A DNA stretch of 32,250 nucleotides from Sphaeroforma arctica JP610 (lineage: Eukaryota), in contig NW_014039651.1 in the NCBI RefSeq assembly GCF_001186125.1, positions 1 to 32,250 of the forward strand, given 5' to 3'. The notes under the pieces were generated by a model that was not told the DNA's origin, did not search any database, and was given only the letters and a program-made list of their open reading frames with translations. Numbering within the stretch: the first letter of the stretch is position 1; every line of letters begins with the position of its first letter. Positions 287-27,767 of the stretch are shown in pieces. The position numbers were made by a program, and so were the translations under genes.

Positions 287-2739
287 GCGCTGGTGACAAA
301 GAAAACTGGTTATGCCATGCACAGGTTTCCGTACTTTATACTTCTGGTAGTTTCCTTCGCATTTGTGCCGTTGTTCTTCGCTATGGTGCTATTTATTCAG
401 TTCAAATCGGGAGGTTTTTCACAGCACACCAAAACCGCCTCGTTACACCTGAAATTCTGCGTTGTCGGAGCCCTGAATGCCTTGAACGGTATGAAATACT
501 GAATTGGGCTGCTCTTCAGACCCTTTCACGCGAGAAGTTTGTACTTGGCATTACCAATCCGAATTTGCTGGCTTAGAGTCATGCAGTTGTATTCTATACA
601 GCGACATGAGCGTCATGTTGTCATTAAAACTGTGCCAGTATTTCTACTAGGGATCAGTAGACTGTTCGTAAAGTAGCCTTCTGTTGTCAAATGTGGCGTC
701 GTAGTTTCCGCCCTTAAGCATTTAGCCAGGACGATGATTCAGCATCAATTCTGACGTGTATTGACTTATTATGTCTCTGCAATCGCAGGTATGTGCGTCA
801 TATTCGCCAATCCGCACGTACCAGGCAGTCTGCAGCAGATTATGGTACAAGCAGTGATGCCCATAACCATGGGGATGTCCATCGTCATTCTGGGCTCCAA
901 GTTCCATCGTTTGCAGCTGCTAGGCGCTCTGATGATCTGTATGGGAGTCATAATCGAGCTGTACCCTCTGTTCATCGGATCGAAAGGTCCGGGTGGGGGC
1001 CTCGAAATATCTCCTGGCGCTGTTGATGATGCTCAAATGCACTCGCACGAGCTTCTGACGAGCGGAACGCAAACGAGTACATATCCGTATGCCTACAGGT
1101 ATACTAGCGGCAGTGCGATAGTAAGCACTGGTGCAAAAAATAACGCCCAACAAAGCCAACCCCCAGCGTATTTCTGGTCGATGGTATTTCTGCTGGGTCA
1201 GGTACCCATGGGCATGCAGAGTGTTTTTCAGGAGCTGGCCTTCTCGCAGGCGCACGTGAACGTCGTGTACATGATGGCCTGGTCATCACTGGCCCAGTTT
1301 CTGTCTTTGTGTGTGCTGAGCGTGTTTAATTTCATCCCAAAGTTTGGGGCTGTGGCGCCCGGTGATTTTGGAGAGTACATGAAAGAGTCACTTCAGTGTG
1401 CCCGGGGATATGGAGACGGATGCGAGCAAGCTCCTGTGCTGTTGACGTGCTTCGTGATGATTATGCTCACCGCCCAGATAGTGCAGGTAAATATGGACTG
1501 TAAAGTTGTATGTATCTTTTGAAAGTTTGGAGCTCGTGTGTAGTTGCAAATATATTTGGTTAGCGATGTATGGATTTTATTGCAGCAGCATGCAATGCAT
1601 CGTTCAAAGTCAGCAGGGTGAGTATTTAGAGCTACACACTTTGTCATGAGGCATATCTAGGATGGTCAGTTGCGAATGCGGAACCATACTAGATTTTAAG
1701 ATGATCATGGCACAGCTATCAAACGCTCTCATTGTCATCTTTCGTTTCCGTTCGTCTGGACCGACTAGACTAACACTTTCACATATTTAAGTAGTTTGCT
1801 TCACACTTAAATCCATCGCCCTGATACTGTCTTGCCATACAAATGCTATCCTCAGGCACTCCTGGTCAAGAAGTCAAGTGCGGCGTTAGTGGTTATAGTC
1901 CTTACCGTCATCACACCCCTATCGACGGTGTGTTTCTCGATACCATATTTAATGGGCGAGCACACCGAGGCCTTGAAAATTAGCACCTGTGTGGCACTTG
2001 TTGTGTTGACTGTGGGTGTTATTATCTACCGAGTGCCCGATGCGCTAGTACTGAAAGAGGGCCGGAAGTGCGAGGCTGACGAGAGGTAAGTGCATGCTGG
2101 TTGTAAGATATCCACGCTGTCTGCCACGTGCAGAAAGTACTTGGTTTTATGCGTTTGATGCATAGATAGTCAGCAACGAGTTCACAATGAAAGCCAGCTT
2201 CACACTGCTCTTTACTTCGGTGCAGGATGGTAAAATATTCATTTGCGAAGTTTCACATTCCTGCAACCTTTAGTACTTGAGAAAATTGCTAGTAACTTTT
2301 AAATTCTGCATTTTCAGCAGCTTCACGGATAGCGACGGGCTGCATACGCAACGTAGGGAGACTGAACCATTACTCACCCGTAAGAAGTAAGTCATCAGGT
2401 TCGATCGCTGATTTATCTACGTAGACAGCAATTTTCTTTTCTGTCATGCGGATTCACTCCGCCATTCTTGTTATCGGAAGCTCATTTGTTTCATTTCTGC
2501 TCACTCATGATAGATCGAGGACAGCCACGACTGATAGTGATAGGCATCCGGTGATGCTCAATTCAAGAATTGGAGTCATCTCTTCGGAATACACGGGCGA
2601 GGCTGACATATCCGATGGCATCAAGACCATTCTGTACAGCCACACACATCTCACGGAAGGGGATGCGAACGCGCACCCAACGCACACGCACGCACACACG
2701 CATACGATGTCCCATTCATACTCAAATGTAGATGCTTGA
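287..2739 (+). CDS. CRT-like (chloroquine-resistance-transporter family, DMT superfamily) membrane transporter, 5'-partial; exons 287-488, 789-1486, 1856-2085, 2318-2386, 2514-2739
   Basis: All introns are GT-AG (donors gtatga 489, gtaaat 1487, gtaagt 2086, gtaagt 2387; acceptors cag 286, cag 788, cag 1855, cag 2317, tag 2513). Phases are compatible: 1425 nt = 475 codons ending in TGA. The product is multi-pass hydrophobic with CRT-like segments 'GALNALNGMCVIFANPHVPGSLQQIMVQAVMPITM', 'QSVFQELAF', 'MAWSSLAQFL', the Cys pair 'SLQCARGYGDGCEQA' and 'LLVKKSSAAL'. Confidence 0.85.
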
Positions 2740-5959: not shown

Positions 5960-8900
5960 ACGGTAATCTGTACATTGAGTAGCTATCTTGCTATCTATGA
6001 GAAACTAGCTGACGTACTCGATCGGCCATACATTGAGGGTGGCACTCATGAAAAAAAAATCGGTCGGGTTGATGAGGTTGTTTTTCTGCACCAACTTGTC
6101 TTCTATGAGGCACAGAGCGCAGTGATCTGCCACATCTTCAAATATTTTAGGATTCCAAGATCGTAAATCAACATGTTGTTGGTCAGTTGGTTGTAGAATG
6201 GGTAAGAGTGGTGATGAATCTTGATCTTATAGCTAGGAGTATCACCAAGGTGAAGCAAGAGAATCTCTTGACGTTGCTTCACACATTCTTTACAACCACT
6301 ACAGGATAAGTCTGACAAAGAAGAAAACATGGTATACTATGATTTTATCTCAAACCAGGCCGTATGTGCAGCGACTCTTTTGGCTCCTTTCTCATGGTGA
6401 CAAGCTGCAAAAGCACAAGTACAAGCGAACCCCTCAAGCGGTAAAAAAGGACACTAAATCGCATATTTGTATCAAATTAAATTGATCATCTGGTACAACT
6501 CTGATCCTTCGCCCAGATTGGCAGGTGTAACAACTGCTATTGATGCGTCAATAGCAATTGATGAAGGAGGCTGATATTCAAGTGGGCGCTCACATAATCG
6601 TATCGTACTCTGTTTGTGCGCTTGAGCTTATGATGATAGTTTCCACGGTCGCTTTCTGTGCTACAGTGTTTGCAGGCCATACGAAGGTTTCCGATTCACC
6701 CGATGCTGCTACTTGGGCTCTTGAATCATATGGAGGCGATGCGAAGAAAAAAAGTAGTCTCCGAACACCGCCAGCCGTCAAGGTATGCACAACACGTCAA
6801 CTTTTACTTTATTGATTACTAGCCATAGCCCGTAAGTAACGGCTGTTCCGCACAGTATTTTTGTGTATATACTGTTTCAAAGTATAGGATATCACATTAT
6901 CAGAATTAGTGGCTTTTGGTAAGTGACCAAAAATATTTCCCGAACTGAACGTCTGCATATCACAAAAAAAAACATCGCACGGAAAGAGGAACACAGTGGT
7001 CCGAAAGTGATGCAGTATTCGCTCGGTGAGTTTTCATAACCTTGACATATTATTTGTTAATGTCTACGCTAGGCAAGTCTACTGGAAGGACTAACGTGTG
7101 GGTTAGACGAAGTACTGCTTTTCTCATGAGGTAGTAATTAATGCAGCGTATTGAGCGTCTAAAGGATGCTACATAACAATTGTACCACTTTGTTAGGAAT
7201 CAGTGAGTACACACTTCCGTCAAGTAACCCACTCTGCTGTGCTGGGTCGTTGTGAGAATCTTCTCCTCATGCACTCCACTCTGAGGGGCTGTTGTAAATG
7301 AAACACTCCAAATACGTATACCACACTGTTCACGGTGTGAATCGCGTGCATATATTTCGTTCTCGCATTTTCGTTTCTTGATTGGCTTATATATAGCCGA
7401 ATTAGGAGCCTTCTTCATCCTGGGAACAATGTCAAATCGGGATACAGAAACCACAACAGAATCTGTGAGGTTTGTACGGTATAGGTCACAATCATGCGTT
7501 CGGGTTGAACAACCAAAATAATTTCACATGATACATCTCACACTGTCTGATGCTTTTTGCATTCTTCTCATTTTAGAATTTGATCGCATATCACCTCTCC
7601 GAAATCTGGTTGCTTTCTGATGGGTCAAGTGAGTGCTTTCAGTTGCAGTGTGCCCCATCGAAATACCGCGCCTTGCTTGGAAAAGAGTATATAGTAGAGC
7701 TGCGATAGCCGACATGCTCGGGACGTATTGTCCCCACTATGATAGAGCTGCCAAGGGGGATATGATCTTCGACATTATATTAATACAAGGATCGAGCTAG
7801 AGTTTGACGTTTCTTGGCATCTTTGTAGTTTATTTTTATTTATTTTTGCAAGAACATCATGATGTGTTGTCTTTGAAGTGTTTTGCGTTCAAGTTATTGA
7901 AGAGAGAAACATCGGACTCTTTAACTCTGATAAGAATAGGTCTTTTGGACTACTGGGGTACCCTGATATGGAAAGATATATATTTCTCTATTTAAATATA
8001 GACTCGCTTTGTGTCATACTTACAAGTTCTGTGAGCCATGAATCTGACTCATGTAACGGACAAAACACTGTTATGGTAGTCCTGTGTAGTTATATGAAAT
8101 TATTGAAGAGTCGAACAATAAGTTGCCAAGGTGGGTTACCTCACTGTAGTTTTGTATTTTAAGAGTTATATTTGAAAGACACCTAAAGGATGATTTGATG
8201 TTCTTCAAATTTTTGTACAGTTGTACATTATCACGTGATATAAAAATATTGTAAATGATCGCAAATATCTTTTGCGCTAGCTTAACTCATCTTGGATTAT
8301 ATTTCCAATCGGTGGCTAAGATACCTTTAATTGATGACTTCCTGTTAGTTTTAAATACTGCACTAAACATCTATATGCTATATACTGTAACATCTTTTAT
8401 TTGCCAGTAGTGCTAGGTTGACTATATTTGTTGCTAGCTATTTCATATCACCCCATCCGCTAACATCTTCTCGATTTGTTCGTTTACTACAGTGTACTAG
8501 ATTTATTTTCTTACATGCAAAGTCAGGCATCGATACCTTGACTGTGCTAGATGGTGGCATATATGGATTCAACAATATTAGAAAGTTTTGTAACGGTAAT
8601 TCCTGTTAAGTTTAGGGGCTAGGGTAGCGACTATAATGTCGTTGTTCTGTGCCATCTTAACTACCACTGGCTGATTGGTATTTGCTCAATCGTCGGCCGA
8701 TGCGAATTTAATGTCCATTGCCATGGTGTCACTCTCGGAAATCTCTGGTCTGCTAGCAAAAGGTAAGTCGTCTGTGTTCCACGTTCGATGTTTTCCACTG
8801 AAATAAGCTAATCAGATACCTCTGAATCTAAATCGAATCAATATCAGAGCTATATTACATTGCAGTATACAAATAATATGACAATACACTCACCTGAGTT

Positions 8901-9091: not shown

Positions 9092-10938
9092 GGGACTACA
9101 GGTCTCGGAGAGACTACAGGTCGCAAACCAGATTTTACAGCAAGAAGTACTTTTTGATTTCTAGAAATCATCAGAGTTAGCTCACTTCCGGGAGCTAATC
9201 AAGTTGCTTAACTTACTCTCGAGAGTTGAGTTGATACTTAACCGACTCCCGAGAGTTGATGAAGTTTGTCAACCGCCTCCCGAGGGTCATTTAAGTTTAT
9301 CAACCGCAACATTCTATATATATAAATAGCTGCATCCCTATGCGAGTCACAACCTATGCGGAAAGGCATCATGTGATCAACGTGAGATTTAGTTATAGAG
9401 AAGTCGAAATAGAATAGCATTAAAGTCTACTACATTACGCTCTAACACTTCATATTTTGCTCATAAGAGGCCTCCTTTTCTTCACAAGTTCTTAACTCAT
9501 CATGATGGTAGTGTTACGTCACGCGAGCGTTCATTAATCTCGAGAACTTTTACCTTTCCATTAGAGGTTACGCGTGCTTCTGAAAAGATCACCATGTTGC
9601 TGATCGTGTTGATGATTACGGTTTAGTCTGACCAGATAAAAACTTCTTCCGATTTGTTCGCATGGCTCATTGAAGTATTTTTATTTCAGTTATATCTGCA
9701 CTTTTTTGCGATGATCGTTGCTATACACATATGTTTCTGTGACCAAAAACCCTACAACACGAGGATAGATAGCAACCAATATCACTTGGAGTTATTACCC
9801 ATAGTGACATGAAGTTTCACCAGGTCGGAGTCAAGTTATTTAAGATATAGCTTGGGTATTCACTTCTGTTTGATAGTTATTAGCCATCGTGTGCGATTTC
9901 CTTCTTTGCAGTCAGCTCATCAACAGATGCATTAAGGGCATCTATATCAGAAGGTACATCTCGATTTGAAATACCGGGTTCCTGACACTGTAGAAGCACA
10001 TGTTTACATAGATCTCAAAATCTGGAATGCGTACAAAGCGTGAAGGATGTATAGTGCCGATCAAAGCATTCCAAATTTTGGAAATCGGGAGACACTATGC
10101 TATACATTAAATTTGAGAACTCTATCCTCGACGGTATTACAGTGTGCTTCTTTCAATATAATAGTTTTCCACCAATATTAAATATATATTTACAACACGG
10201 GCCAGGTCAGAAACCAAATGATATATAGTCAAGTACTCACACACAGAGTAAGACAATCTACTATGAAATAGGACATGTCGAGCTCTCCTGGAAAGTCAAC
10301 TAGATGTTCCCGACTATGACTTAAATAGGGTGGAGAACTAGGTACCACGTTGTGGTATCATGGGCGCAGTGTAATCACTGAACCAGCTTGGTGTTTTGAT
10401 ATAATAAGTTGGGTTTGCATCCATTTAATGGCGCCGAGTACTTCTATGGCTGGGCGACATACTTGAAGCATGAACGCAGCCAATCGATGTCGCTTCAATC
10501 TATAGACCAAGAGTGTATCAGTCTAAAGTTTTCATATCTTTTAGCACTCTACCGAGGTCTGAAGCAAAACATAATTATTTCTCATACATAAGGTTGTTCA
10601 TGTGCACTTCCTTCTTAGTCTAGACGCGCATATTCAACTTCTTTGGTATGTATAGCTTTGGTATCTTTGCATTCATGACCAAAGTTGAGTGTTGAATTTT
10701 CACGACGTTCTGCTGAAGATGTTGGTGATTGAACATCATCTCCATCCACAACATATATCTTCTCGGTAGACGCCACTTCAAAAGAGATAGTATTTTCACG
10801 AAACTGGAGAGAGAGAGAGAGAGAGACCTAAAACCCAGAAACTTGATTACCTCTCAGGAGTGAGCTAACTCTGAAATAAATTCTATATATCACGAGGGTT
10901 TCTTGCTGTAAAATCTGACCTGAGACCTGTAGTCTCTC
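9092..10938. mobile_element. Non-autonomous or decayed TIR DNA transposon with ~100-110-bp imperfect terminal inverted repeats
   Basis: 9092-9205 (GAGAGACTACAGGTC...CAGATTTTACAGCAAGAA...TCAGAGTTAGCTCAC...TAATCAAGTT) is the reverse complement of 10840-10938. The left end is TTAA|GGG; there is no matching TTAA on the right and no intact transposase ORF. Confidence 0.7.
10807..10825. repeat. (GA)n microsatellite
   Basis: Direct read. Confidence 0.9.
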
Positions 10939-10948
10939 AGACGCCACA

Positions 10949-11214
10949 TGTGGTCTGAATACACCAGGTAGGGTTAAACTTATATTTATTAGAGTTTATT
11001 AAAGTTTATCAGAAGGATCTGATAAACTTAGTTTTTGCCGATTAATAGAATCAGCACATGACTCATCAATTAGAAGTCAGCGATTTATAAATCGGAACAT
11101 GACTCATTAATTAGAGGAGTCATGATTTTTACGATTACTAATAAAAGAACAACGTCTCCCTCTCTATGGGGGTAGAACGTTGAGATACAGTTATCTTAGC
11201 GTGCACTTACGACA
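10949..11214 (+). repeat. 5' LTR (266 bp)
   Basis: TGTGGTC...TTACGACA. About 90% identical by eye to 17056-17325 (around 20 substitutions, 2 indels). Contains TATAAA (~11085) and AATAAA (11140-11145). Confidence 0.95.
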
Positions 11215-11291
11215 TTTTTAACTTACCATAGATGTTGTTAGTTTTTTTAGCAAAGATAGACGGTAGCTAGTAGATTTTTTTTTGTTAAGGA

Positions 11292-13000
11292 ATGTCGCAA
11301 CAAAATGACGAGATCTTCCAAAATTTGCCTAACGAAGAGGAGGATAGCGGGTTCACAAGTAGTGATGCCAGCGCTACGATGCCTTCATTAATGTCAAACA
11401 GAAGCAGTGAAGCGGAGGAAGAATCGAGACCGGATGGCCACATGAATGCTCCGGGGAACCACCCACGAGTGCTGAGGTGAATGAAAGCAGGTTCAGAATT
11501 AACAGTAACGTCACGGCTCGACATCTTGAACGATTTAGATTATCTGGCCGGCTCCCAGCGGCGTTTGGACAACGAGTACAAAGGCAGAAACTGTTCCTAC
11601 AGTCGAATCCGTGGAGGAAACCTCTCAGTCAAGTACATCAATGGCAAAAGAACGACAAGGACGGGCCCAGAATGATCAAATGACGAAGACAGAGAACCAG
11701 CCAGAAAACTCAGATAAGTAGTTACATATTAGGAAAGGCAAATAAGGTTGAATGGGTGTGATGCATGAGTAGAATTTTGCAATGAAGTAACAAGCTTAAA
11801 CCCTAGTTGAGAGGAGCTGTTAGGAAAAGAGGAGGCTCTTTAGGAACTACGGTGGCAGAAATGGGAAGTGTACATGGATAGAGCCGAACCGGCTAGTATT
11901 ACGACATAGAGAAATCAGTAGAATACTATATTTGATTTACAAGAACACGGAATAATTGAAGGTTGAGTTATACAAACTAGAACATAGTCTTCACCTAGAA
12001 TAAACGTTAGTTGATGATACAGTGCACACATTAGTTGATGATACAGTGCACACATTAGTTGATGATACAGTGCACACATTAGTTGATGATACAGTGCACA
12101 CATTAGTTGATGCAGACGATCGAATGTACCAAGCAATGACCAAAACACAGGCAGGACAAGCGTTACAGATAATATATGTAAAGGGTACGGCGGGCATACC
12201 AAGCACACGACAAGAAAGTGAATAATTTATGCCAAGGAAGCTTGGTAAGCCGACGAAATCAAGAAGTAGAAGTTGAGCGGCAACCTATGCGCATTTAATG
12301 ACAACCTTATTCAGCACGGAATATAGGTTAGTTTCGAATGATTTAACCGATAGATTTGTAGCTTCCAAGACGAATATACAGAAGTGGTTAATTAGAATAA
12401 TTAAGTTAAGGGTTACTACAGCGGGTAGTGACGAAATTGCACCAAAACAGGAATCCAAGTGAAGACGTTTACAACCAAGATTGTACGAAGAGTGCTATAT
12501 ATGGGTTTCGTCGACAAAATAAGTTACGGGAGTGTACATAGAGCAATAAGTAAGCACCAGTGAGCTTCCTTAGGATCATATAAGGGTGTTTTCGTACGTA
12601 ACATGAGCGGTGCAAGTGGTACATTATTAAATTATGCATGTGTGATGTGAGAACGTATACGATGTAACAGAACCTCCAGGTAAAACAGGTAAATGGGGAA
12701 GCTTAGGAGAACGCTCAGGGTGCGTTGTTTGTTGGAGAGCATTTTAGGAGCGCAATAGTTGACGACATACCATATATGACAGGGAACATAATTCGACGAC
12801 CGCAAGGGCACATGACGAAACACGACGAGCAGAGGAAACGAAGTAAGAAAAGCAAGAAGAGAATTCAGGAGCTTTCTATGGAGTAAGAGACGGTGCACCG
12901 AAAGTAGGTTTGATGCCACATCGGAGTAGGAGCAGACTACAAAGGTTTTAAGAGATGTTCCGACAAGCGGGACGTACCTCAGCAAGGGATTTATTCGAAG
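11292..13000 (+). pseudogene. Decayed first ORF of the LTR element (unidentified; accessory ORF or atypical gag)
   Basis: ATG 78 bp after the 5' LTR. 11292-11480 and 11481-11675 are one frame split by a TGA (MSQQNDEIFQNL...RVLR*MKAGSELTV...). Purine-rich, coding-like composition continues to ~13000 with many stops; the end is approximate. Confidence 0.45.
12007..12112 (+). repeat. 24-bp minisatellite TTAGTTGATGATACAGTGCACACA x4.4 (encodes LVDDTVHT repeats)
   Basis: Four perfect copies plus 10 bp. Confidence 0.97.
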
Positions 13001-13227
13001 GAAGAGCAAGACATCAGACCGTTGGATGGTGAGTCGAGACTCATCTACCACTCTGTGGGTGAAGTTGAAGTAGTCGAGAATGGGCTAACTGTTCCACGAG
13101 GACAATCGTCGAGGCTTAATGTGTTAGAGGGATGGACTCTAGAATTGAAACGGGTATTTATACTCAATTCTTTCCGAGTTCGTTCGCACACATTTCAAGA
13201 TCTCCGTTGAAACACACTTCCTCCACC

Positions 13228-14180
13228 ATGTCCAACCTACGCCAAAGTCATAGACAGCAACATCTAAACCCTGAACGTCGGTACAAAGCCCCGCCAATCT
13301 AATCAAGACCGCACCAGCCAAGAATCAGAGCAGGATCCGGAGGGGTAACAACAGGCACGTCTAGAGGTTCGTCACCCGACGTTCACTAACGGTAGGCAGA
13401 CATCAACAGCACACGGAGTTGAGCCTAACCACTCAGAGGAAGACGTCGTATTCGACACTGAGTCTTGAGAGTTCCCGACCTGCGTGCGGATCAGAGTCAG
13501 GCCGTTACTGGTGAATATGTAGCTAGTAACGATCTGCCTTACTCATTCTTCTTCGGGAACATCCGGCTCTACGTCCTCAGGCAACGACCAGCCACACCTA
13601 CCGCCCAGCAAGCGTAGACGTCATCGCCGACTTACTACTAACAAGGGTACGGGGCGTGAACAGGTCTCCACACTGAAACTAACTCAGTTGATGGCGCAAC
13701 AACAGCCTTTGTTTGACAAGTACGAACAACGTCTTTAACGTACTTCTTCTGACCGGTCCACGCTCACCCCTACTGCCAACGAGATATCGGACAGCACACA
13801 CAAACGTGAGCACACGTCATCAGGGGACGATGACAAGCCGTCGTTCCATATTCAGGGCCGCACTCAACCACATCACGGATTCGGGTATGTATCACCAGGA
13901 TCGGAAGGTCTTCTATCCGAGGGTGAGATCCAATCCTTGCAAGATTTTGCGCGTGAACAAGTGTTAGCGAAGCAGAAATAAGTGGACTCCACAATTACAA
14001 ATCGAACAGATCTGCTCGCATGAGACGCAAGCCACAGTCGACCCCGCGTTTCGCAAGCTGGCCAAGGGCCACAGTAAGAATATGCACACCCCCATCATGG
14101 AACAAATGACGCAGCTCATGGAAAACCATAGGCGGGCACGCGAGCGGTGCCAAACGGACGCAGACTTTCAACAGAACTCA
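13228..14180 (+). pseudogene. Putative decayed gag region
   Basis: Lies immediately upstream of the protease remnant. C/A-rich coding-like sequence with a helical-looking peptide (ETQATVDPAFRKLAKGHSKNMHTPIMEQMTQLMENHRRARERCQTDADFQQ). No diagnostic motif seen. Confidence 0.35.
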
Positions 14181-14259
14181 TTAAAATCAACTTATTAAAA
14201 TCTGTATGTACATTTAGTGACTTTCCCATGTAGGCCATGTACATTTAGAGTATTTCCTC
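14181..14259. mobile_element. AT-rich fragment carrying one end of the MITE family seen at 27549-27767, inserted in the LTR element
   Basis: 14204-14259 GTATGTACATTTAGTGACTTTCCCATGTAGGCCATGTACATTTAGAGTATTTCCTC closely matches 27713-27767. Confidence 0.7.
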
Positions 14260-14261
14260 AT

Positions 14262-16760
14262 TTAGCTGGCAAGGCGGTACGAACTCCTTGACTGGGAACG
14301 ACGGAAGTATTGCCTATTCGATACGGAACCAAGATTATCGACGGATCACTTGAACTGATGAATTTACCTGCAGGAATGGACATCATAGTGGGGCAATATT
14401 GAAAGGTTTGGGACTATACATAGGCGGTATCCAATCGCCTCTCACACCGATAAATCCTACAGAACTTGATGAGCTCATCGAACCTATCCCACGCCGACAA
14501 GCACCGAACACGACAGAGCCTGCCGACGCACGCCAACGGCTCGCAACGCGTTGATTGCCGATAACGCGAGATGTCGTTTGGCAGGGAGTGAAGTTACCAC
14601 CCCAGTCAAACGTAAACAGGCTATGCACATGCGTAGGTCTACGAGCAATTTTGAATACGACCGATGGCTGCCCTACGTAGACGAGCAAGTGCAGACGTGG
14701 TTGGCGGATTTGGTAATAACGAAACGTACGACACCGACAACAGTGAACCTCCCTTTTCTAGCGGTTCCGATGTTCGATGTGGAAGGAAACGTGAAGAAGG
14801 TGAGGGTATGTTTAGACATGTGCGCCGTCAAATTTGATTCCAAAGGTCAACGAACTTATCTCCCCACTAAAGAGTAAAAAGTACTACACAATTTTGGACA
14901 TCTCTGCAGCATACCACAGGCTGCCGATACATCCAGATTCACAATACTTATTTAGTTTCACAGACGAGCGTTCTCAGTACTCGTTTACATCAGCACCGTT
15001 TGGACTCCATGTTCTCACACAACAGTTCCAACGTACATTGAGCACGATACTCGACGGCATACCGGTCCATCACTATATCGACGACATAGTTATTGCTAGC
15101 GACGACTATGACGAACATATTAGGACGGTGCAGAAGGTGATCCAACGCTTGATATACTATAGCATTAAGCTCAATCCCGCTGAGTGCCACTTTGCTATCC
15201 CCGGAAGTTATGATCATAGGGAAAAAGGTATCCGCGCAAGGCATCGACATTGAGCATGAGAAATAGGCAAAGCTAATCGACTGGTCTACCCCACTATGGT
15301 ACAAGGACATCGCTTCCGCCTTAGGGTTGACGAACTACCTCCATGAGCATCTCCCAACTTCGCAAACACAGTCGCACCCTTGTGCAAATTTTGCAAGCTC
15401 AAACCTAATGAGTTGATCGGCGATCGCTGGGAGGAACGACATGCGCAGGCGTGGTAGGCGATAAAAGATACAGTTGTTTATACAGTCGCATTGCACTTTC
15501 CGGTCGACGATATACCATTGAACTTAGAAACAGACGCTAGCGATTACGGTTTGGGAAGAGTATTATTCCACTGGGTCATCGGAAAGAAAGACTACTTGAT
15601 GTTCTTTAGTAAGAGACTGAACCATGCGCAGCAGAACTACGCTACACCAATGAAGGAGTTATTAGCTTTGGTGTATGGGCTTACACATTTCAGGGAGCAC
15701 CTGGATGGGCAACGGTTTGCAGCCTTCACAGATCACAAGGCCCTGGTGTATATGAACACGCAGCTTAAACTTAATCCGATGCTCCAGAGATGGCACCACA
15801 TCATGGCACCGTTCAACTTCACCATATCACATATACCAGGGGAAGCAAACGTGCCACCAGACATGTTGAGCAGAGTGCACGAGGGTACAGCGGAGCGAGA
15901 CGAACCTAAAACATTGTATACAGATTGTTGGCAATTATTTCCTAGTTACTTTAAACAAGCTCAGAAACACTTCGGTCCGAATGACATAGATGTATTTGTG
16001 GACCCGACTAACGCTCAACTACCTCGATTTTGGATGAAGGAGGACGGGGAAGGCGCCTTTGCCCACGACTGTTCGACGGTAGACGGGTGGATAAATCCAC
16101 CATGGGGGAAGATACCTAGAATGTTGTGCAAGATAAGAGCCCACAGTGCAAGTGCAACCGTATGCTTACCTTGGGTTACGAGAGCGCCGTGGTTTGACTT
16201 GTTGAAGTAGTTGCTACAGTCAGAACCAGTGCTGGTTCCACGTACGCCACATACGTTCATAAAGTATGCTAAGTACGCATGTGTTAAGACACCATGGGGG
16301 GCACACGGTGATCGCACGAGCGGGTCCACCAACCGGTTACAAACTAGAGCCACTCTTTTCACAACGACTAGGTGTTTAGATACAGCATGGGAAATATCGG
16401 TGGCAATGTCAGAGGCAGAGGGTACACCGGAAGAACGACAGCGCCGTACACAACTCACGCAAGCTTACCACGAACAAGGCTACCATGGACACAGTTCAAC
16501 AACTCCGACATAAAGGCCAGATGTGGCCGGACGCCAGCTGAAGTCAAATGACAGTGTGTTACATGCCTGGGTCAAGACATGCTACGTAAGTTCATCCGAT
16601 GATCAGCATCGACGCGCGCTACCCGTAGGACCACATACAAGTTGATTACATTCTTATGCCACTTGAGTCCCCGAGGAAGAACAATTACATCCTTCACGTC
16701 CTGGATATCGCTACAGGCTACTCAATCCTTCGAACAACACCTGACAAGACGAAAAAGACG
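14262..16760 (+). pseudogene. pol: pol pseudogene: protease C-terminal remnant, reverse transcriptase, RNase H, amino-methyltransferase, truncated integrase
   Basis: PR tail 'MDIIVG' (~14377). RT 'KKVRVCLDM', 'LDISAAYHRL', 'APFGL', 'YIDD' (15074-15085). RH 'LETDASDYGLG' (TDAS 15530-15541), 'KELLALV', 'FTDHKAL', 'HIPGEANVPPDMLSR'. IN 'YHEQGYHG' (~16466-16489) and 'P*DHIQVDY...YILHVLDIATGY' (~16623-16722). Several frameshifts and stops. Confidence 0.93.
15923..16300 (+). other. DNA amino-(N6-adenine-type) methyltransferase domain, DIRS/phage-Dam-like, in frame with RNase H
   Basis: 'DCWQLFPSYF...FGPNDIDVFVDPTNAQLPRFW...GAFAHDCS...WINPPWGKIPRMLCKIR...ATVCLPWVTRAPWFDLL' follows the pattern of the DIRS MT domain. 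The catalytic-type NPPW is at 16094-16105. One in-frame TAG at 16208-16210. Confidence 0.85.
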
Positions 16761-16928
16761 ACGGACGTGGGAAACAGCGGAGGCATTTGACGATGCCAAC
16801 GATATCGCGGCCTACCACAAGGCCTCGCAGACACGGACACGTAAACGCCAACTTGCCCATATCCAACCTTTATCTTAGAAACATGACTATTCGGTATGAC
16901 GGCGCGCTCGAGCCGTGGTTTTCGAGCC

Positions 16929-17038
16929 CTCTAGCTCCCAGAGGTTAATTGCCTGCATGCCAGCACACTGCTTTAGCTCCCAGAGGATAAATGCCTGTCA
17001 CATGCAAGCACACTGCTCTAGCTCTCAGAGGGTAAATG
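16929..17038 (+). repeat. 2.5 imperfect tandem copies of a 42-45-bp unit in the element's 3' untranslated region
   Basis: CTCTAGCTCCCAGAGG..AATGCCTG..CATGC.AGCACACTG units start at 16929, 16971 and 17016. Confidence 0.9.
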
Positions 17039-17053
17039 GTGGGGGGGGGGTGG
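17038..17053 (+). promoter_or_regulatory. Polypurine tract (plus-strand primer)
   Basis: G10 run (17041-17050) ending a few bases before the TG of the 3' LTR at 17056. Confidence 0.85.
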
Positions 17054-17055
17054 CT

Positions 17056-17325
17056 TGTGGTCGGAATACACCAGGTAGAGTTAAACTTAGATTTATTAGA
17101 GTTTATTAAAGTTTATCAGAAGAATTTAAAAAACTTAGTTTTTGACGATTAATATAATCAGCACATGACTCATCAATTAGAAGTCAAGGATTTATAAATC
17201 GGCACATAACTCATTAATTAGAAGAGTCATGATTTTTACGATTACTAATAAAAGAACATCATTTCCCTCGGGGGGAGAACGTTGAGAACGTTGAGATGCA
17301 GCTATCTTAGCGTGCACTTACGACA
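17056..17325 (+). repeat. 3' LTR (270 bp)
   Basis: TGTGGTC...TTACGACA; direct repeat of 10949-11214 with a 9-bp internal duplication (GAACGTTGA x2). Confidence 0.95.
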
Positions 17326-19373: not shown

Positions 19374-19524
19374 AAAGTCGCTATATGTACATTGAAAATG
19401 TGGAAAAGTCACTAAATGTATATTCACCTATTTTACCGATGAAAACGTACTGAAATATTGAACAAATATGTACAAATGTACATTTAGCGACAATTCCGTT
19501 TTTCTATGTACATTTACTGACTTT
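19374..19524. mobile_element. Palindromic MITE-like element related to 27549-27767, interrupting the LINE RT region
   Basis: AAAGTCGCTATATGTACATTGAAAATGTGGAAAAGTCACTAAATGTATATT pairs imperfectly with AATGTACATTTAGCGACAATTCCGTTTTTCTATGTACATTTACTGACTTT. It shares GTCACTAAATGTA with the 27549-27767 copy. Confidence 0.55.
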
Positions 19525-22419: not shown

Positions 22420-23860
22420 TACCTATATGGGATGCCGAGTGGTACAACTCAACACTAATACAAGTAGAAACCATCATTTAAACAGACACTGCATTCCCGA
22501 GACTCCTGTACCAGCGCGTATGGCTTCTCCGCTTCTGCGGCTTACTTCCAGCACGCCAACTTGCGGGGGTACCATGGTGGCTACATGAGACTACATCTTG
22601 ACTCGGTCAACATTACAAACCCACTCGCCCCGCTAATGCGAAACTCGCTTGGACACGTAACAGTCCTCTGGACAAATTTATGTTCAATATTTACGCTTAT
22701 ATGTATTTTGTGCCATGATAGCAACTAACACCTCCCATTCAATTGCTTGACTATCGTAATGGGGGATGCCTTTGTCCAGTGTGCCCAGGAGATAAGTTTA
22801 TTTCCAGCCACTTTGCTTGTATCAGTAACATGAGACGTATTCTGGTGGGTCCTAATCTACTACCAATTGAACTGCACTTACTACAACAGCACGCAATCGA
22901 CATGACTACCACGGCATATAGACTCTTCACGAACATCTCGGGAGCTTTTTTCTCCATGAACAGCGGACATAATACAAAACTCGCTTGGGCATGTAACGGT
23001 CCTCTGGACGAATCTCCGTTCAGTTTTTACGCATATCTGGATTTTGTGCCATGATAGCAACCAACACCTCCCATTTAAACTGCTCGACTATCGTACTGGA
23101 GGATGCCTCTATCCAGTGTGCCCCGGAGGTAAGACTTTTAATTCCGGCCACTTTGCTTGTATCAGTAACTTGATACGACGTATTCTGGTGGGCCCTAATC
23201 TACTGCCAATGGAACTGGACTTACTACAACAGCTTCGCAATCGACATGGATACCACGGTATATAGCCTCTCCACGAACATCTCGGGATCTTCCTTCTCCA
23301 TGTACAACGGGCATCAATTTACCCCCATCCAGCACTGGTCAACAGATGTTTCTTATGCCCCGCCACCTTTTGGTATAGGACAAATCTTCGAGACTTGTTG
23401 TACTGTCTATGATACTTCCCGCTATAGCTAACCAGGATATTCTAAATACATCAGTTGTGTGGAATGGCAACAGACAGCCGTCAATTTCGCTCCGAAACAG
23501 AATTGCGGATGCTAGCCAGACTCACCCTACTTGGTATCATGTTCAATAATACTCAGATTGACCCGGCCCAGATTTCCACTACGAGTGTGGGCTAGCTTTC
23601 CCCCCCACACAATGGCACACAAGCTTTAGCTCCCACCCAAGGGTGGAAATGTTCTGATCTATCGCCGCAAATTAGCGCACCGTATGTTTTCCATCGTTGC
23701 ATCGCGGCAGTTCCACAATCTTAACTTCCTTTCAATCTTCTCAGAACCTCGCCAACGAATATGGAACCTGATGCGCATCTCGACATATAGTATTTCACCA
23801 TTGCCATCTACTTAGTATATCAAAACTACGCTGAACAACTTCAATATAAAAGAAGGTACA
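22420..23860 (+). mobile_element. Probable decayed 3' part of a non-LTR retrotransposon (Cys/His zinc-knuckle-like motif) with an internal ~336-bp duplication (22641-22970 / 22977-23314)
   Basis: 'CPVCPGDKFISSHFAC' at 22773-22820, repeated at ~23110. The sequence is C-rich, intronless and full of stops. Segment 23705-23778 is homologous to 26321-26397 on the minus strand. The duplication is certain; the element identity is tentative. Confidence 0.4.
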
Positions 23861-26299: not shown

Positions 26300-26760
26300 G
26301 GTAAATTATTACATGTCTACATGCACGTCAGGCTTCATATTCGTTGGCGGGGTTGTTCTGGGAAGATTAAAGGGAAGTTAAGATTGTCGAACTGCCGAGG
26401 GAAAAATGATAGCTTGGTCCGATGAGAGTTCACATCATCGTTCGCATTCAGCATGCAATCAATGATGCCATTACGCCTAAGTTCGAAAGGAAGCTGTTTG
26501 GGGATGATTTTAGGCGTTGTTACAACCAATTTGAACTGAAAGCATCAGGTTGATAGCTTTTGCCAGGTCTCGGGAAAACTGTGAATGTAACATGTCGTCC
26601 AAGCCTGGTTTGTTCATGATACGCTGCGGTCATAAAACAACGACGCTATGCGAAATACGATCAAGCTCTCGTGGGGGTAAAGCGTCAAGTAAGAAAGAAC
26701 CGGAAGCGATGAGCCCTATTGTGTTGCAGACAATATGATTTAGAAGTGGTAGCCTGTGTA
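26300..26760 (-). mobile_element. Possible 3' end of an RLE-type (CRE-like) non-LTR retrotransposon
   Basis: The minus frame reads 'IVCNTIGLIASGSFLLDAL...FSRDLAKAINLMLSVQIGCNNA*', resembling the terminal helices of restriction-like endonucleases of CRE-type elements. It is followed by the segment shared with 23705-23778. Confidence 0.35.
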
Positions 26761-27548
26761 AAAATGATCGGTGTTGCCTTCTGGTAAGAGACATAATAAC
26801 CTCAATCACACAGTGTTACGTACTTCTAGAATCTTTATTAGATATTTTCTAATTGAACAGCTATGGGTTCATAGCTCACATGGTCGCAATGTAAACATGT
26901 ATATGAACCTTGGTAATACAACAGTAATTATAAATAAAGGTTCTACTGAATAAAAGGTAAAACAGAAAAAGAAAACAAAATCTTCAAACAAAATCTTGGA
27001 GATTGGCGGGAGAACCAACACCATAAGTATGTAGTCGTTTAGACTTTATGAAATTTAGTCTATAGTCTCCTACAGAATGTGCTATTGTCTTAAAAAGAGC
27101 AAAGCATATGACCCAGTCATACCAAATAATCAGACTATATGATCGCAAAGTGGACTTAGAACACTTTGTAGTTATGGAAGAAGAATATGTATTTAGTCAT
27201 TGTTCAAATACAGTATACAAAACCAATGTGATCATCATATTTTGTCTTGATATTTTAGACTGATCAGAGGCCGTCTTTATACAGATCATCGACTCTACAT
27301 ACATCTTTTTTTGACATTTGATTTGTATTCGTTGGCTATTATGTATACACAGTTTGCTGGTTTACTGCATTTTAAGTTCAGTTGATTCTTTTGCGCATAG
27401 TAATAATTCAGGTTTAACAAACATATATGTTTTGTGGTTGCAATGCAAGAATCCACTAATATTTACATTGAAGTGACACCGGTTTGCATACAACGGCGCA
27501 CAAAACAGCTGACAATCCTACAGTGCGATGTACACTATTTTGTTAAAA

Positions 27549-27767
27549 GAACGAAATATCCATAGGTACATTACCGCACTGGAAAGGTCACTAAATGTAC
27601 ATAAGAAGTCTCTTGTACCTTTAAATGTTTAATTGAAATAAATTTGAGAAAGGAATTGAAAATCGCATTTAGAGAATTTGATTGGGTAATTAGAAAACGT
27701 ATCCGTAAAGTCGTATATACATTTAACGAATTCCCATGTAGGCCATGTACATTCAGGGTATTTCCTC
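27549..27767. mobile_element. MITE-like element (~220 bp) with ~55-bp imperfect TIRs
   Basis: Left arm GAACGAAATATCCATAGGTACATT...GGTCACTAAATGTACATA pairs with right arm TATATACATTTAACGAATTCCCATGTAGGCCATGTACATTCAGGGTATTTCCTC. The core is AT-rich; the right arm recurs at 14204-14259. Confidence 0.65.

What the first reader, a model, noticed from the sequence alone, without database searches (positions are those of the whole stretch)
15923..16760. Ty3/Gypsy LTR retrotransposon encoding a DNA amino-methyltransferase between RNase H and a DDE integrase
Seen: one reading frame runs from RNase H (...PDMLSR) through a short linker into 'DCWQL...FGPNDIDVF..PTNAQLPRF...GAFAHD...WINPPW..IPRMLCKI...ATVCLPWVTRAPWF'. 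After one TAG the same frame continues into the integrase His-His zinc motif. The integrase core start (DHIQVD...YILHVLDIATGY) follows, all inside direct TG...CA LTRs with a PPT. Known: [DNSH]PP[YFW] is catalytic motif IV of N6-adenine/N4-cytosine MTases. A Dam-like MT domain after RNase H is typical of DIRS-class elements, which use a tyrosine recombinase; it is not part of the standard Gypsy PR-RT-RH-IN layout. Inference: a Gypsy lineage that captured a DIRS-type MTase in frame and could mark its own cDNA with 6mA/4mC, for example to mimic active host chromatin, evade silencing or aid integration. This copy is dead. I cannot confirm from here whether this architecture has been reported before.
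Basis: partly seen in the sequence, partly recalled or inferred. Interest (0 to 1): 0.88.

Follow-up and report, generated by a model that had tools for sequence, protein, structure and literature searches.

The report
Dead gypsy retrotransposon with Dam-like methylase
This is a broken gypsy-type jumping gene, likely from a single-celled relative of animals, that carries an adenine-methyltransferase-like domain between its RNase H and integrase; the domain is real and conserved in intact relatives and likely marks the element's own copies, but this design was described in a 2026 preprint, so it is an ordinary extra example.

Summary
A 6.4-kb element (10949-17325) has direct TG...CA LTRs, a G-rich tract, Ty3/Gypsy RT and RNase H, then in the same frame a Dam-like domain (Pfam PF05869, 28.5 bits; NPPW intact; predicted SAM-methyltransferase fold), then an integrase remnant. 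The RT groups with integrase-bearing elements, not DIRS-type RTs (100/99). Intact PR-RT-RH-Dam-IN polyproteins exist in relatives, and two Sphaeroforma arctica proteins share the RH-Dam junction, so this is not a nested DIRS fragment. Corrections: the domain runs past the TAG to about 16310, the integrase core is in another frame and only its first third survives, and the zinc motif is barely recognisable. It is not new: bioRxiv 10.64898/2026.05.21.726589 describes DAM-LTR retrotransposons, including an ichthyosporean lineage (S. arctica, Abeoforma, Pirum) enriched in 6mA, and proposes the same mechanism. Catalysis is unshown: that paper's E. coli assay was negative. The best solved-structure match here is the RNA cap methylase PCIF1 (Z 7.8, modest), which keeps an RNA or RNA:DNA substrate open. 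A second, decayed Dam remnant lies at 7979-8340. Verdict: real, a new copy of a known kind; interest 0.2.

The parts
10949..11214 (+). 5' LTR (TG...CA), 266 nt
   Evidence: 242 of 263 aligned bases identical to the 3' LTR
11215..14249 (+). Leader and decayed gag region; no recognisable domain; includes a 24-nt tandem array at 11980-12123
   Evidence: only short broken ORFs, no Pfam hit for the two scanned on this strand
14250..14461 (+). Aspartic protease remnant (C-terminal part), weak
   Evidence: tblastn segments to P0022 residues 101-158; own profile, 6.6 bits, E 0.0035
14545..15253 (+). Reverse transcriptase, Ty3/Gypsy type, split by a frameshift near 14820-14840; YIDD intact
   Evidence: RVT_1 E 1.1e-16; trees
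15458..15877 (+). RNase H of Ty3/Gypsy type
   Evidence: RT_RNaseH E 9e-26; best solved relative Ty3 Gag-Pol 7q5b, E 1.4e-15
15920..16310 (+). Dam-like (PF05869) N6-adenine methyltransferase-fold domain in frame with RNase H; DVFV at 15989-16000, NPPW at 16094-16105, internal TAG at 16208-16210
16466..16604 (+). Decayed integrase zinc-binding region (His pair 16469/16484; frameshift and stops follow)
   Evidence: (weak)
16605..16760 (+). First third of the integrase catalytic core; the rest is missing
   Evidence: E 1.5e-12, profile positions 2-55 of 167; 26 of 52 identical to P0022
17037..17055 (+). G-rich polypurine-like tract before the 3' LTR
   Evidence: seen directly
17056..17325 (+). 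3' LTR (TG...CA), 270 nt

Best explanation
This is a dead Ty3/Gypsy LTR retrotransposon whose Pol reads protease-RT-RNase H-Dam-like domain-integrase, likely a member of the published ichthyosporean DAM-LTR lineage, and in active copies the domain likely adds N6-methyladenine to the element's own reverse-transcription products so that new insertions would enter a host's 6mA-marked, expressed chromatin state. Shown here: anatomy, fold prediction, intact NPPW, Gypsy-side RT, shared junction in sister proteins, conservation in intact relatives. Inferred: host (probably Sphaeroforma), origin of the domain from a DIRS element, catalysis, substrate and benefit. My odds: a bona fide DAM-LTR 0.95; ichthyosporean lineage 0.8; active DNA or hybrid 6mA self-marking 0.55.
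For: Pfam and PHROG methyltransferase hits; model pLDDT 80, pTM 0.77 whose top 18 solved matches are all SAM-dependent methyltransferases incl. T4 Dam, M.TaqI, E. coli Dam and whose best viral matches are phage N6-adenine methyltransferases (E 2.4e-4 to 1e-3). RT tree: window inside a 15-row Gypsy-type clade against 47 DIRS-like RTs, 100/99, and in an 11-row subclade with two Abeoforma whisleri proteins, 99/90; with 10 RTs from loci carrying a tyrosine-recombinase-like motif added, the split stays 100/99 and the subclade is 94/86. No such motif in six frames of the element, against 17 of 43 fetched loci. Closest Dam relatives are S. arctica SARC_07150 (61%) and SARC_12577 (53%), both with the same RH-Dam junction. 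6 of 24 scanned hits (picked from 150) show RT, RH, Dam and integrase Pfam domains in one ORF. Across 6 intact polyproteins (15 pairs) mean identity is Dam 0.49, RT 0.47, RH 0.43, IN 0.38, linkers 0.17-0.21. NPP[W/F] in 14 of 16 LTR-type domains. The preprint reports more 6mA and expression on DAM-LTRs in S. arctica and A. whisleri.
Against: The preprint's heterologous assay in Dam-deficient E. coli showed no gain of 6mA, and Iyer et al. judged DIRS1 MTase domains likely inactive. This family has Val where 151 of 157 relatives have Ala in the D-x-F-A motif, and Cys where most have Asp/Glu before the conserved Trp; the Val is shared with SARC_07150 but SARC_12577 keeps Ala. In the Dam trees the window plus SARC_07150 sit on a long stem whose link to the Abeoforma clade is unresolved (support 9/73). 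The relatives were picked by a Dam query, which inflates Dam conservation; no dN/dS was possible. Host not confirmed: no genome held, sequencing-run look-up gave no answer. No depletion of CpG, ApT or GATC signal of note inside the element.
Confidence: 0.6

Rival explanations
1. Same element, but the domain works on RNA, like its structural kin PCIF1: it would methylate or bind the cap-proximal or internal adenosines of the element's own transcript inside the particle.
For: Best solved match is zebrafish PCIF1/CAPAM (6irx, Z 7.8, rmsd 3.2, 126 aligned), then mostly RNA methyltransferases KsgA/DIMT1/Erm (Z 5.5-6.7), with T4 Dam at 5.8; one DIRS-like hit also matches Pfam PCIF1_WW (P0010); Iyer et al. 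place DIRS1 MTases in the PCIF1 clade; the domain is only about 130 aa and the preprint says it lacks part of the DNA target-recognition region; no DNA methylation in E. coli.
Against: Z under 8 may reflect only a common fold (tool note); Foldseek on PDB found nothing at E<=0.001; sequence and viral-structure matches are phage DNA adenine methyltransferases; the preprint's DNA 6mA enrichment and AMT1 co-occurrence point to DNA.
Confidence: 0.2
2. The domain is catalytically dead and is kept as a nucleic-acid- or SAM-binding module or spacer; the 6mA on these elements would come from host AMT1.
For: Negative E. coli assay; Iyer et al. inactivity claim for DIRS1 domains; family-specific changes near the SAM-binding motif; other windows of this scan noted catalytic-motif loss in other families (unchecked).
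Against: NPP[W/F] kept in 14 of 16 LTR-type and 35 of 47 DIRS-like domains; conservation equal to RT.
Confidence: 0.15
3. One-off chimera: a DIRS fragment inserted in a Gypsy copy, or a DIRS pol beside an unrelated integrase.
For: Most of the 150 listed Dam relatives with an RT are DIRS-like (47 of 61 RT rows); the Dam branch is not resolved with the other LTR-type domains.
Against: RT and RH are Gypsy-type; junction shared with two S. arctica proteins; one intact relative, P0022, matches colinearly from protease to integrase; direct LTRs, no recombinase motif.
Confidence: 0.03

Closest known systems
DAM-LTR retrotransposons, Ichthyosporean lineage (Fernandez-Moreno et al., bioRxiv 10.64898/2026.05.21.726589; whole main text read)
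   Same: Ty3/Gypsy-like organisation with a PF05869 Dam domain, no chromodomain seen, Asn-Pro-Pro-aromatic motif, closest named relatives from S. arctica and A. whisleri; the proposed mechanism is the same.
   Different: This copy is decayed; its Dam is a divergent subfamily (long branch, Ala-to-Val in D-x-F-A). I could not see the paper's figures or supplements, so whether this family or copy is in its data set, and the exact domain order it draws for this lineage, are unknown.
DIRS1-like tyrosine-recombinase retrotransposons (RT-RH-MT pol; PMC2685390, passages)
   Same: Same MT domain directly after RNase H; many of the closest Dam relatives are DIRS-like.
   Different: Here direct LTRs, a protease remnant, an integrase core and a Gypsy-side RT; no recombinase motif found.
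PCIF1/CAPAM cap-adenosine N6-methyltransferase (PDB 6irx; Iyer et al. PMC4738411, passages)
   Same: Best solved-structure match of the model (Z 7.8); literature groups DIRS MTases with PCIF1.
   Different: 14% identity; no WW or helical domain; substrate of the retroelement domain unknown.
Phage Dam-like N6-adenine methyltransferases (PF05869, PHROG 111)
   Same: Profile hits and best viral structure matches.
   Different: Embedded in a retroelement polyprotein rather than a free phage gene.

Membership tests
Ty3/Gypsy LTR retrotransposon | Direct LTRs with TG...CA ends and a PPT | tested here: met
Ty3/Gypsy LTR retrotransposon | Order PR-RT-RH-IN | tested here: met
   protease weak, integrase truncated
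Ty3/Gypsy LTR retrotransposon | RT groups with Gypsy rather than DIRS | tested here: met
   (100/99). No named Repbase references, and no BEL or Copia RTs, were in the trees; RH is closest to Ty3 among solved structures
Ty3/Gypsy LTR retrotransposon | Primer-binding site and target-site duplication | tested here: inconclusive
   no TGG-type PBS next to the 5' LTR; flanks match 3 of 4 at best
Ty3/Gypsy LTR retrotransposon | Complete DDE triad and HHCC finger | tested here: inconclusive
   only the first third of the core survives here; Pfam rve or H2C2 present in intact relatives
DAM-LTR (2026 preprint) | PF05869 Dam domain (their threshold E 1e-5) within an LTR element | tested here: met
   E 1.4e-6 to 6.6e-6
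DAM-LTR (2026 preprint) | Asn-Pro-Pro-aromatic catalytic motif | tested here: met
   WINPPW at 16088-16105
DAM-LTR, Ichthyosporean lineage | Dam domain falls in the ichthyosporean clade | tested here: inconclusive
   sister to S. arctica SARC_07150 (100/96-99) but link to the Abeoforma clade unresolved; RT does group with Abeoforma (99/90; 94/86)
DAM-LTR, Ichthyosporean lineage | No chromodomain | tested here: inconclusive
   none seen, but the integrase C-terminus is mostly deleted
DAM-LTR, Ichthyosporean lineage | Ichthyosporean host with AMT1 and 6mA on insertions | not testable with these tools
   no genome held; no read data obtained; host inferred from nearest named hits
DIRS1-like | Tyrosine recombinase, no protease or integrase, inverted or split repeats, DIRS-type RT | tested here: not met
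Active N6-adenine DNA methyltransferase | SAM-dependent methyl transfer to DNA adenine | not testable with these tools
   fold and motif compatible; published assay on relatives negative

The most novel reading that the evidence does not exclude
The retroelement 'Dam' domain is not a DNA methylase but a PCIF1-like RNA adenine methyltransferase that modifies the element's own genomic RNA (cap-proximal m6Am or internal m6A) or the RNA strand of the RT hybrid inside the particle, which would explain the failed E. coli DNA assay; and this Sphaeroforma-type family may be a further independent capture of the domain.
Probability: 0.2. Interest if true: 0.6.

Novelty: new member of a known kind. Interest (0 to 1): 0.2.

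Why it matters
DAM-LTRs suggest that retrotransposons can write the host's own activating mark (6mA) onto new copies. That idea and this architecture are already in a May 2026 preprint that includes Sphaeroforma arctica, so this decayed copy adds little. What stays open, and would matter, is the substrate: nobody has shown catalysis, and the structural closeness to the RNA cap methylase PCIF1 gives a concrete alternative to test on intact natural domains.

Tried and rejected
No whole genome is held, so no copy census, young copies or dN/dS. The sequencing-run look-up gave no result. Two word-index protein searches on the Dam region found nothing (0 of 102 and 0 of 5 candidates); an RT search found 1 of 156 (P0167, a fragment ending in RNase H, so it cannot show whether sisters lack the domain). 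Viral-contig scan with P0022: 0 of 8 pattern matches confirmed. Metagenome scan: 43 loci from 285 matches, only L001 with an integrase core, so no close LTR pairs for codon analysis. Single-sequence fold was poor (pLDDT 53) and not used; Foldseek on PDB gave no match at E<=0.001. PDB sequence searches matched only the RNase H part, PCIF1 at E 0.68. The Atlas gave unnamed eukaryotic clusters for the domain and no host clue for the neighbouring transporter gene. No tRNA in the window. Self-priming was considered: only 7-nt complements between the post-LTR sequence and the LTR, rejected as chance-level. Dinucleotide and GATC ratios in the element are unremarkable. Rows left out of trees: near-identical cluster members (P0154, P0156, P0160, P0168 and similar), P0142 from the RT tree, and subsamples of DIRS-like rows; trees used LG+G4 without the mixture model and bootstraps had not fully settled. 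Look-ups of earlier findings by place and sequence returned nothing.

Full report
Observation. The window holds a 6,377-base element between two direct repeats, 10949-11214 and 17056-17325, that begin TGTGG and end ACGACA and are identical at 242 of 263 aligned bases (K2P 0.085). A G-rich tract lies at 17037-17055. The frame 15458-16207 is stop-free and scores for Ty3/Gypsy RNase H (PF17917, E 9e-26) and then for Dam (PF05869; E 1.4e-6, 28.5 bits against a cut-off of 28.1 for 15920-16207). PHROG 111, DNA methyltransferase, also matches (E 6e-7). WINPPW is at 16088-16105 and the TAG at 16208. Homology to intact relatives continues to about 16303, so the stop interrupts the domain. The same frame reaches a His pair at 16469/16484; the integrase core starts in another frame at 16605-16629 and ends by 16760, covering profile positions 2-55 of 167 (E 1.5e-12; Pfam rve only E 0.13). 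RT (RVT_1 E 1e-16) and a weak protease remnant lie upstream. Frameshifts near 14830, 15200, 15350 and 16490 and several stops make the copy dead. There is no TGG-type primer site and only a 3-of-4 flank match.

What it is. A full phmmer search with the linker and domain (116 aa) gave 581 relatives, 150 listed. The best are Sphaeroforma arctica SARC_07150 (61%) and, seventh, SARC_12577 (53%); both carry the same RH-to-Dam junction, so the fusion is a family trait. Of 24 hits that I picked by rank and length, 6 show RT, RNase H, Dam and an integrase Pfam domain in one ORF (P0003, P0005, P0022, P0038, P0109, P0112); three more long ones (P0007, P0013 and Abeoforma whisleri P0024) lack a Pfam integrase hit at E 0.001 but align through the integrase region. 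P0022 matches the window colinearly from protease to integrase. In an RT tree of 62 rows the window lies with 14 Gypsy-type rows against 47 DIRS-like rows (100/99) and in a subclade with two Abeoforma proteins (99/90). Adding RTs from 10 metagenome loci that carry a tyrosine-recombinase-like motif anchors the DIRS side and leaves the split at 100/99, the subclade at 94/86. The element has no such motif, 17 of 43 loci do. In Dam trees the window pairs with SARC_07150 (100/96 and 100/99) on a long stem; its link to the Abeoforma-containing LTR clade is unresolved, and chromodomain-bearing or other LTR elements fall elsewhere among DIRS-like domains, in line with repeated capture. Among six intact polyproteins (15 pairs) the domain is as conserved as RT (0.49 against 0.47; linkers 0.17-0.21), though these were found with a Dam query, which biases this upward. 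NPP plus an aromatic residue is kept in 14 of 16 LTR-type and 35 of 47 DIRS-like domains. The window has Val where 151 of 157 relatives have Ala in the D-x-F-A motif, shared with SARC_07150 but not SARC_12577.

Structure. With a 79-sequence alignment the domain folds at pLDDT 80, pTM 0.77. Foldseek on PDB found nothing significant. The wide VIA search returned SAM-dependent methyltransferases in ranks 1-18: PCIF1/CAPAM (Z 7.8, rmsd 3.2, 126 aligned), KsgA/DIMT1/Erm (5.5-6.5), T4 Dam (5.8), M.TaqI (5.4); the tool warns that Z under 8 may mean only a common arrangement. Viral structures: phage methyltransferases, mostly named N6-adenine, E 2.4e-4 to 1e-3.

How it likely works. In an active element the domain would be made as part of Pol, packaged with the RNA, and released beside RT-RH and integrase (inference from Ty3/Gypsy biology, recalled). 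The most likely job is adding 6mA to the cDNA or RNA:DNA intermediate so that host AMT1 maintains an expressed state after integration (about 0.55). Support is correlative and from the literature; catalysis is unshown. Rivals: RNA substrate like PCIF1 (0.2), inactive binding module (0.15), one-off chimera (0.03). Nothing here favours 4mC.

Comparison with what is known. bioRxiv 10.64898/2026.05.21.726589 (whole main text read; figures and supplements not seen, and they may list this family) reports DAM-LTRs as a first identification, at least four transfers from DIRS into Ty3/Gypsy, an ichthyosporean lineage in Pirum gemmata, A. whisleri and S. arctica without chromodomain, more 6mA and expression on these elements in S. 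arctica and A. whisleri, and no activity in Dam-deficient E. coli. Iyer et al. (PMC4738411, passages) put DIRS1 MTases in the PCIF1 clade and call them likely inactive. PMC2685390 (passages) gives the DIRS layout. Searches listed no other paper whose title or abstract start describes a Gypsy element with this domain. Other windows of this scan reached the same preprint for other genomes (23 findings, 8 shown, unchecked); I had found it independently.

Verdict. A real and correctly read feature, a decayed member of a kind described in May 2026, probably from a host lineage that paper studied. The host is inferred from nearest named hits only (no genome). Interest 0.2; the RNA-substrate reading would deserve about 0.6 at probability 0.2.

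Noticed in passing
window 7979-8340, minus strand (faint RT N-terminal piece at 8446-8487): A second, much more decayed Dam-like remnant with NPPW, closest to a different intact RT-RH-Dam-IN polyprotein (P0112; 51% over 53 aa, E 1.6e-15); RT and RNase H between the two pieces seem deleted. Suggests a second DAM-LTR family in this host.
   Followed up: partly
window 9105-9208 and 10837-10941: Inverted repeat pairs (87-88% complementary, about 1.7 kb apart) ending 7 bases before the 5' LTR; looks like a non-autonomous terminal-inverted-repeat element.
   Followed up: no
window 14196-14259 (related copies 19381-19426, 27544-27603, 27706-27767): A roughly 60-nt dispersed repeat lies where the protease N-terminus should be; possibly a small insertion that broke the element.
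   Followed up: partly
window 11980-12123: 24-nt tandem repeat, 4-5 copies, in the element's leader.
   Followed up: no
window 755-1522 (+), gene extends on both sides: Host gene for a CRT-like (chloroquine-resistance-transporter-like) membrane protein, Pfam PF08627 E 2.7e-25, apparently intron-containing.
   Followed up: partly
window 11215-11234: No tRNA-type primer site after the 5' LTR; the priming mode of this family is unexplained.
   Followed up: partly
P0142: A relative with the Dam domain upstream of RT instead of after RNase H, showing that the position varies among families.
   Followed up: no
L001:1-3207: A JGI metagenome contig with a near-intact RT-RH-Dam-IN element related to the Abeoforma group.
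   Followed up: partly
window 23705-23799 and 26300-26397: Another inverted-repeat pair about 2.5 kb apart enclosing 190-nt direct repeats and an assembly gap.
   Followed up: no
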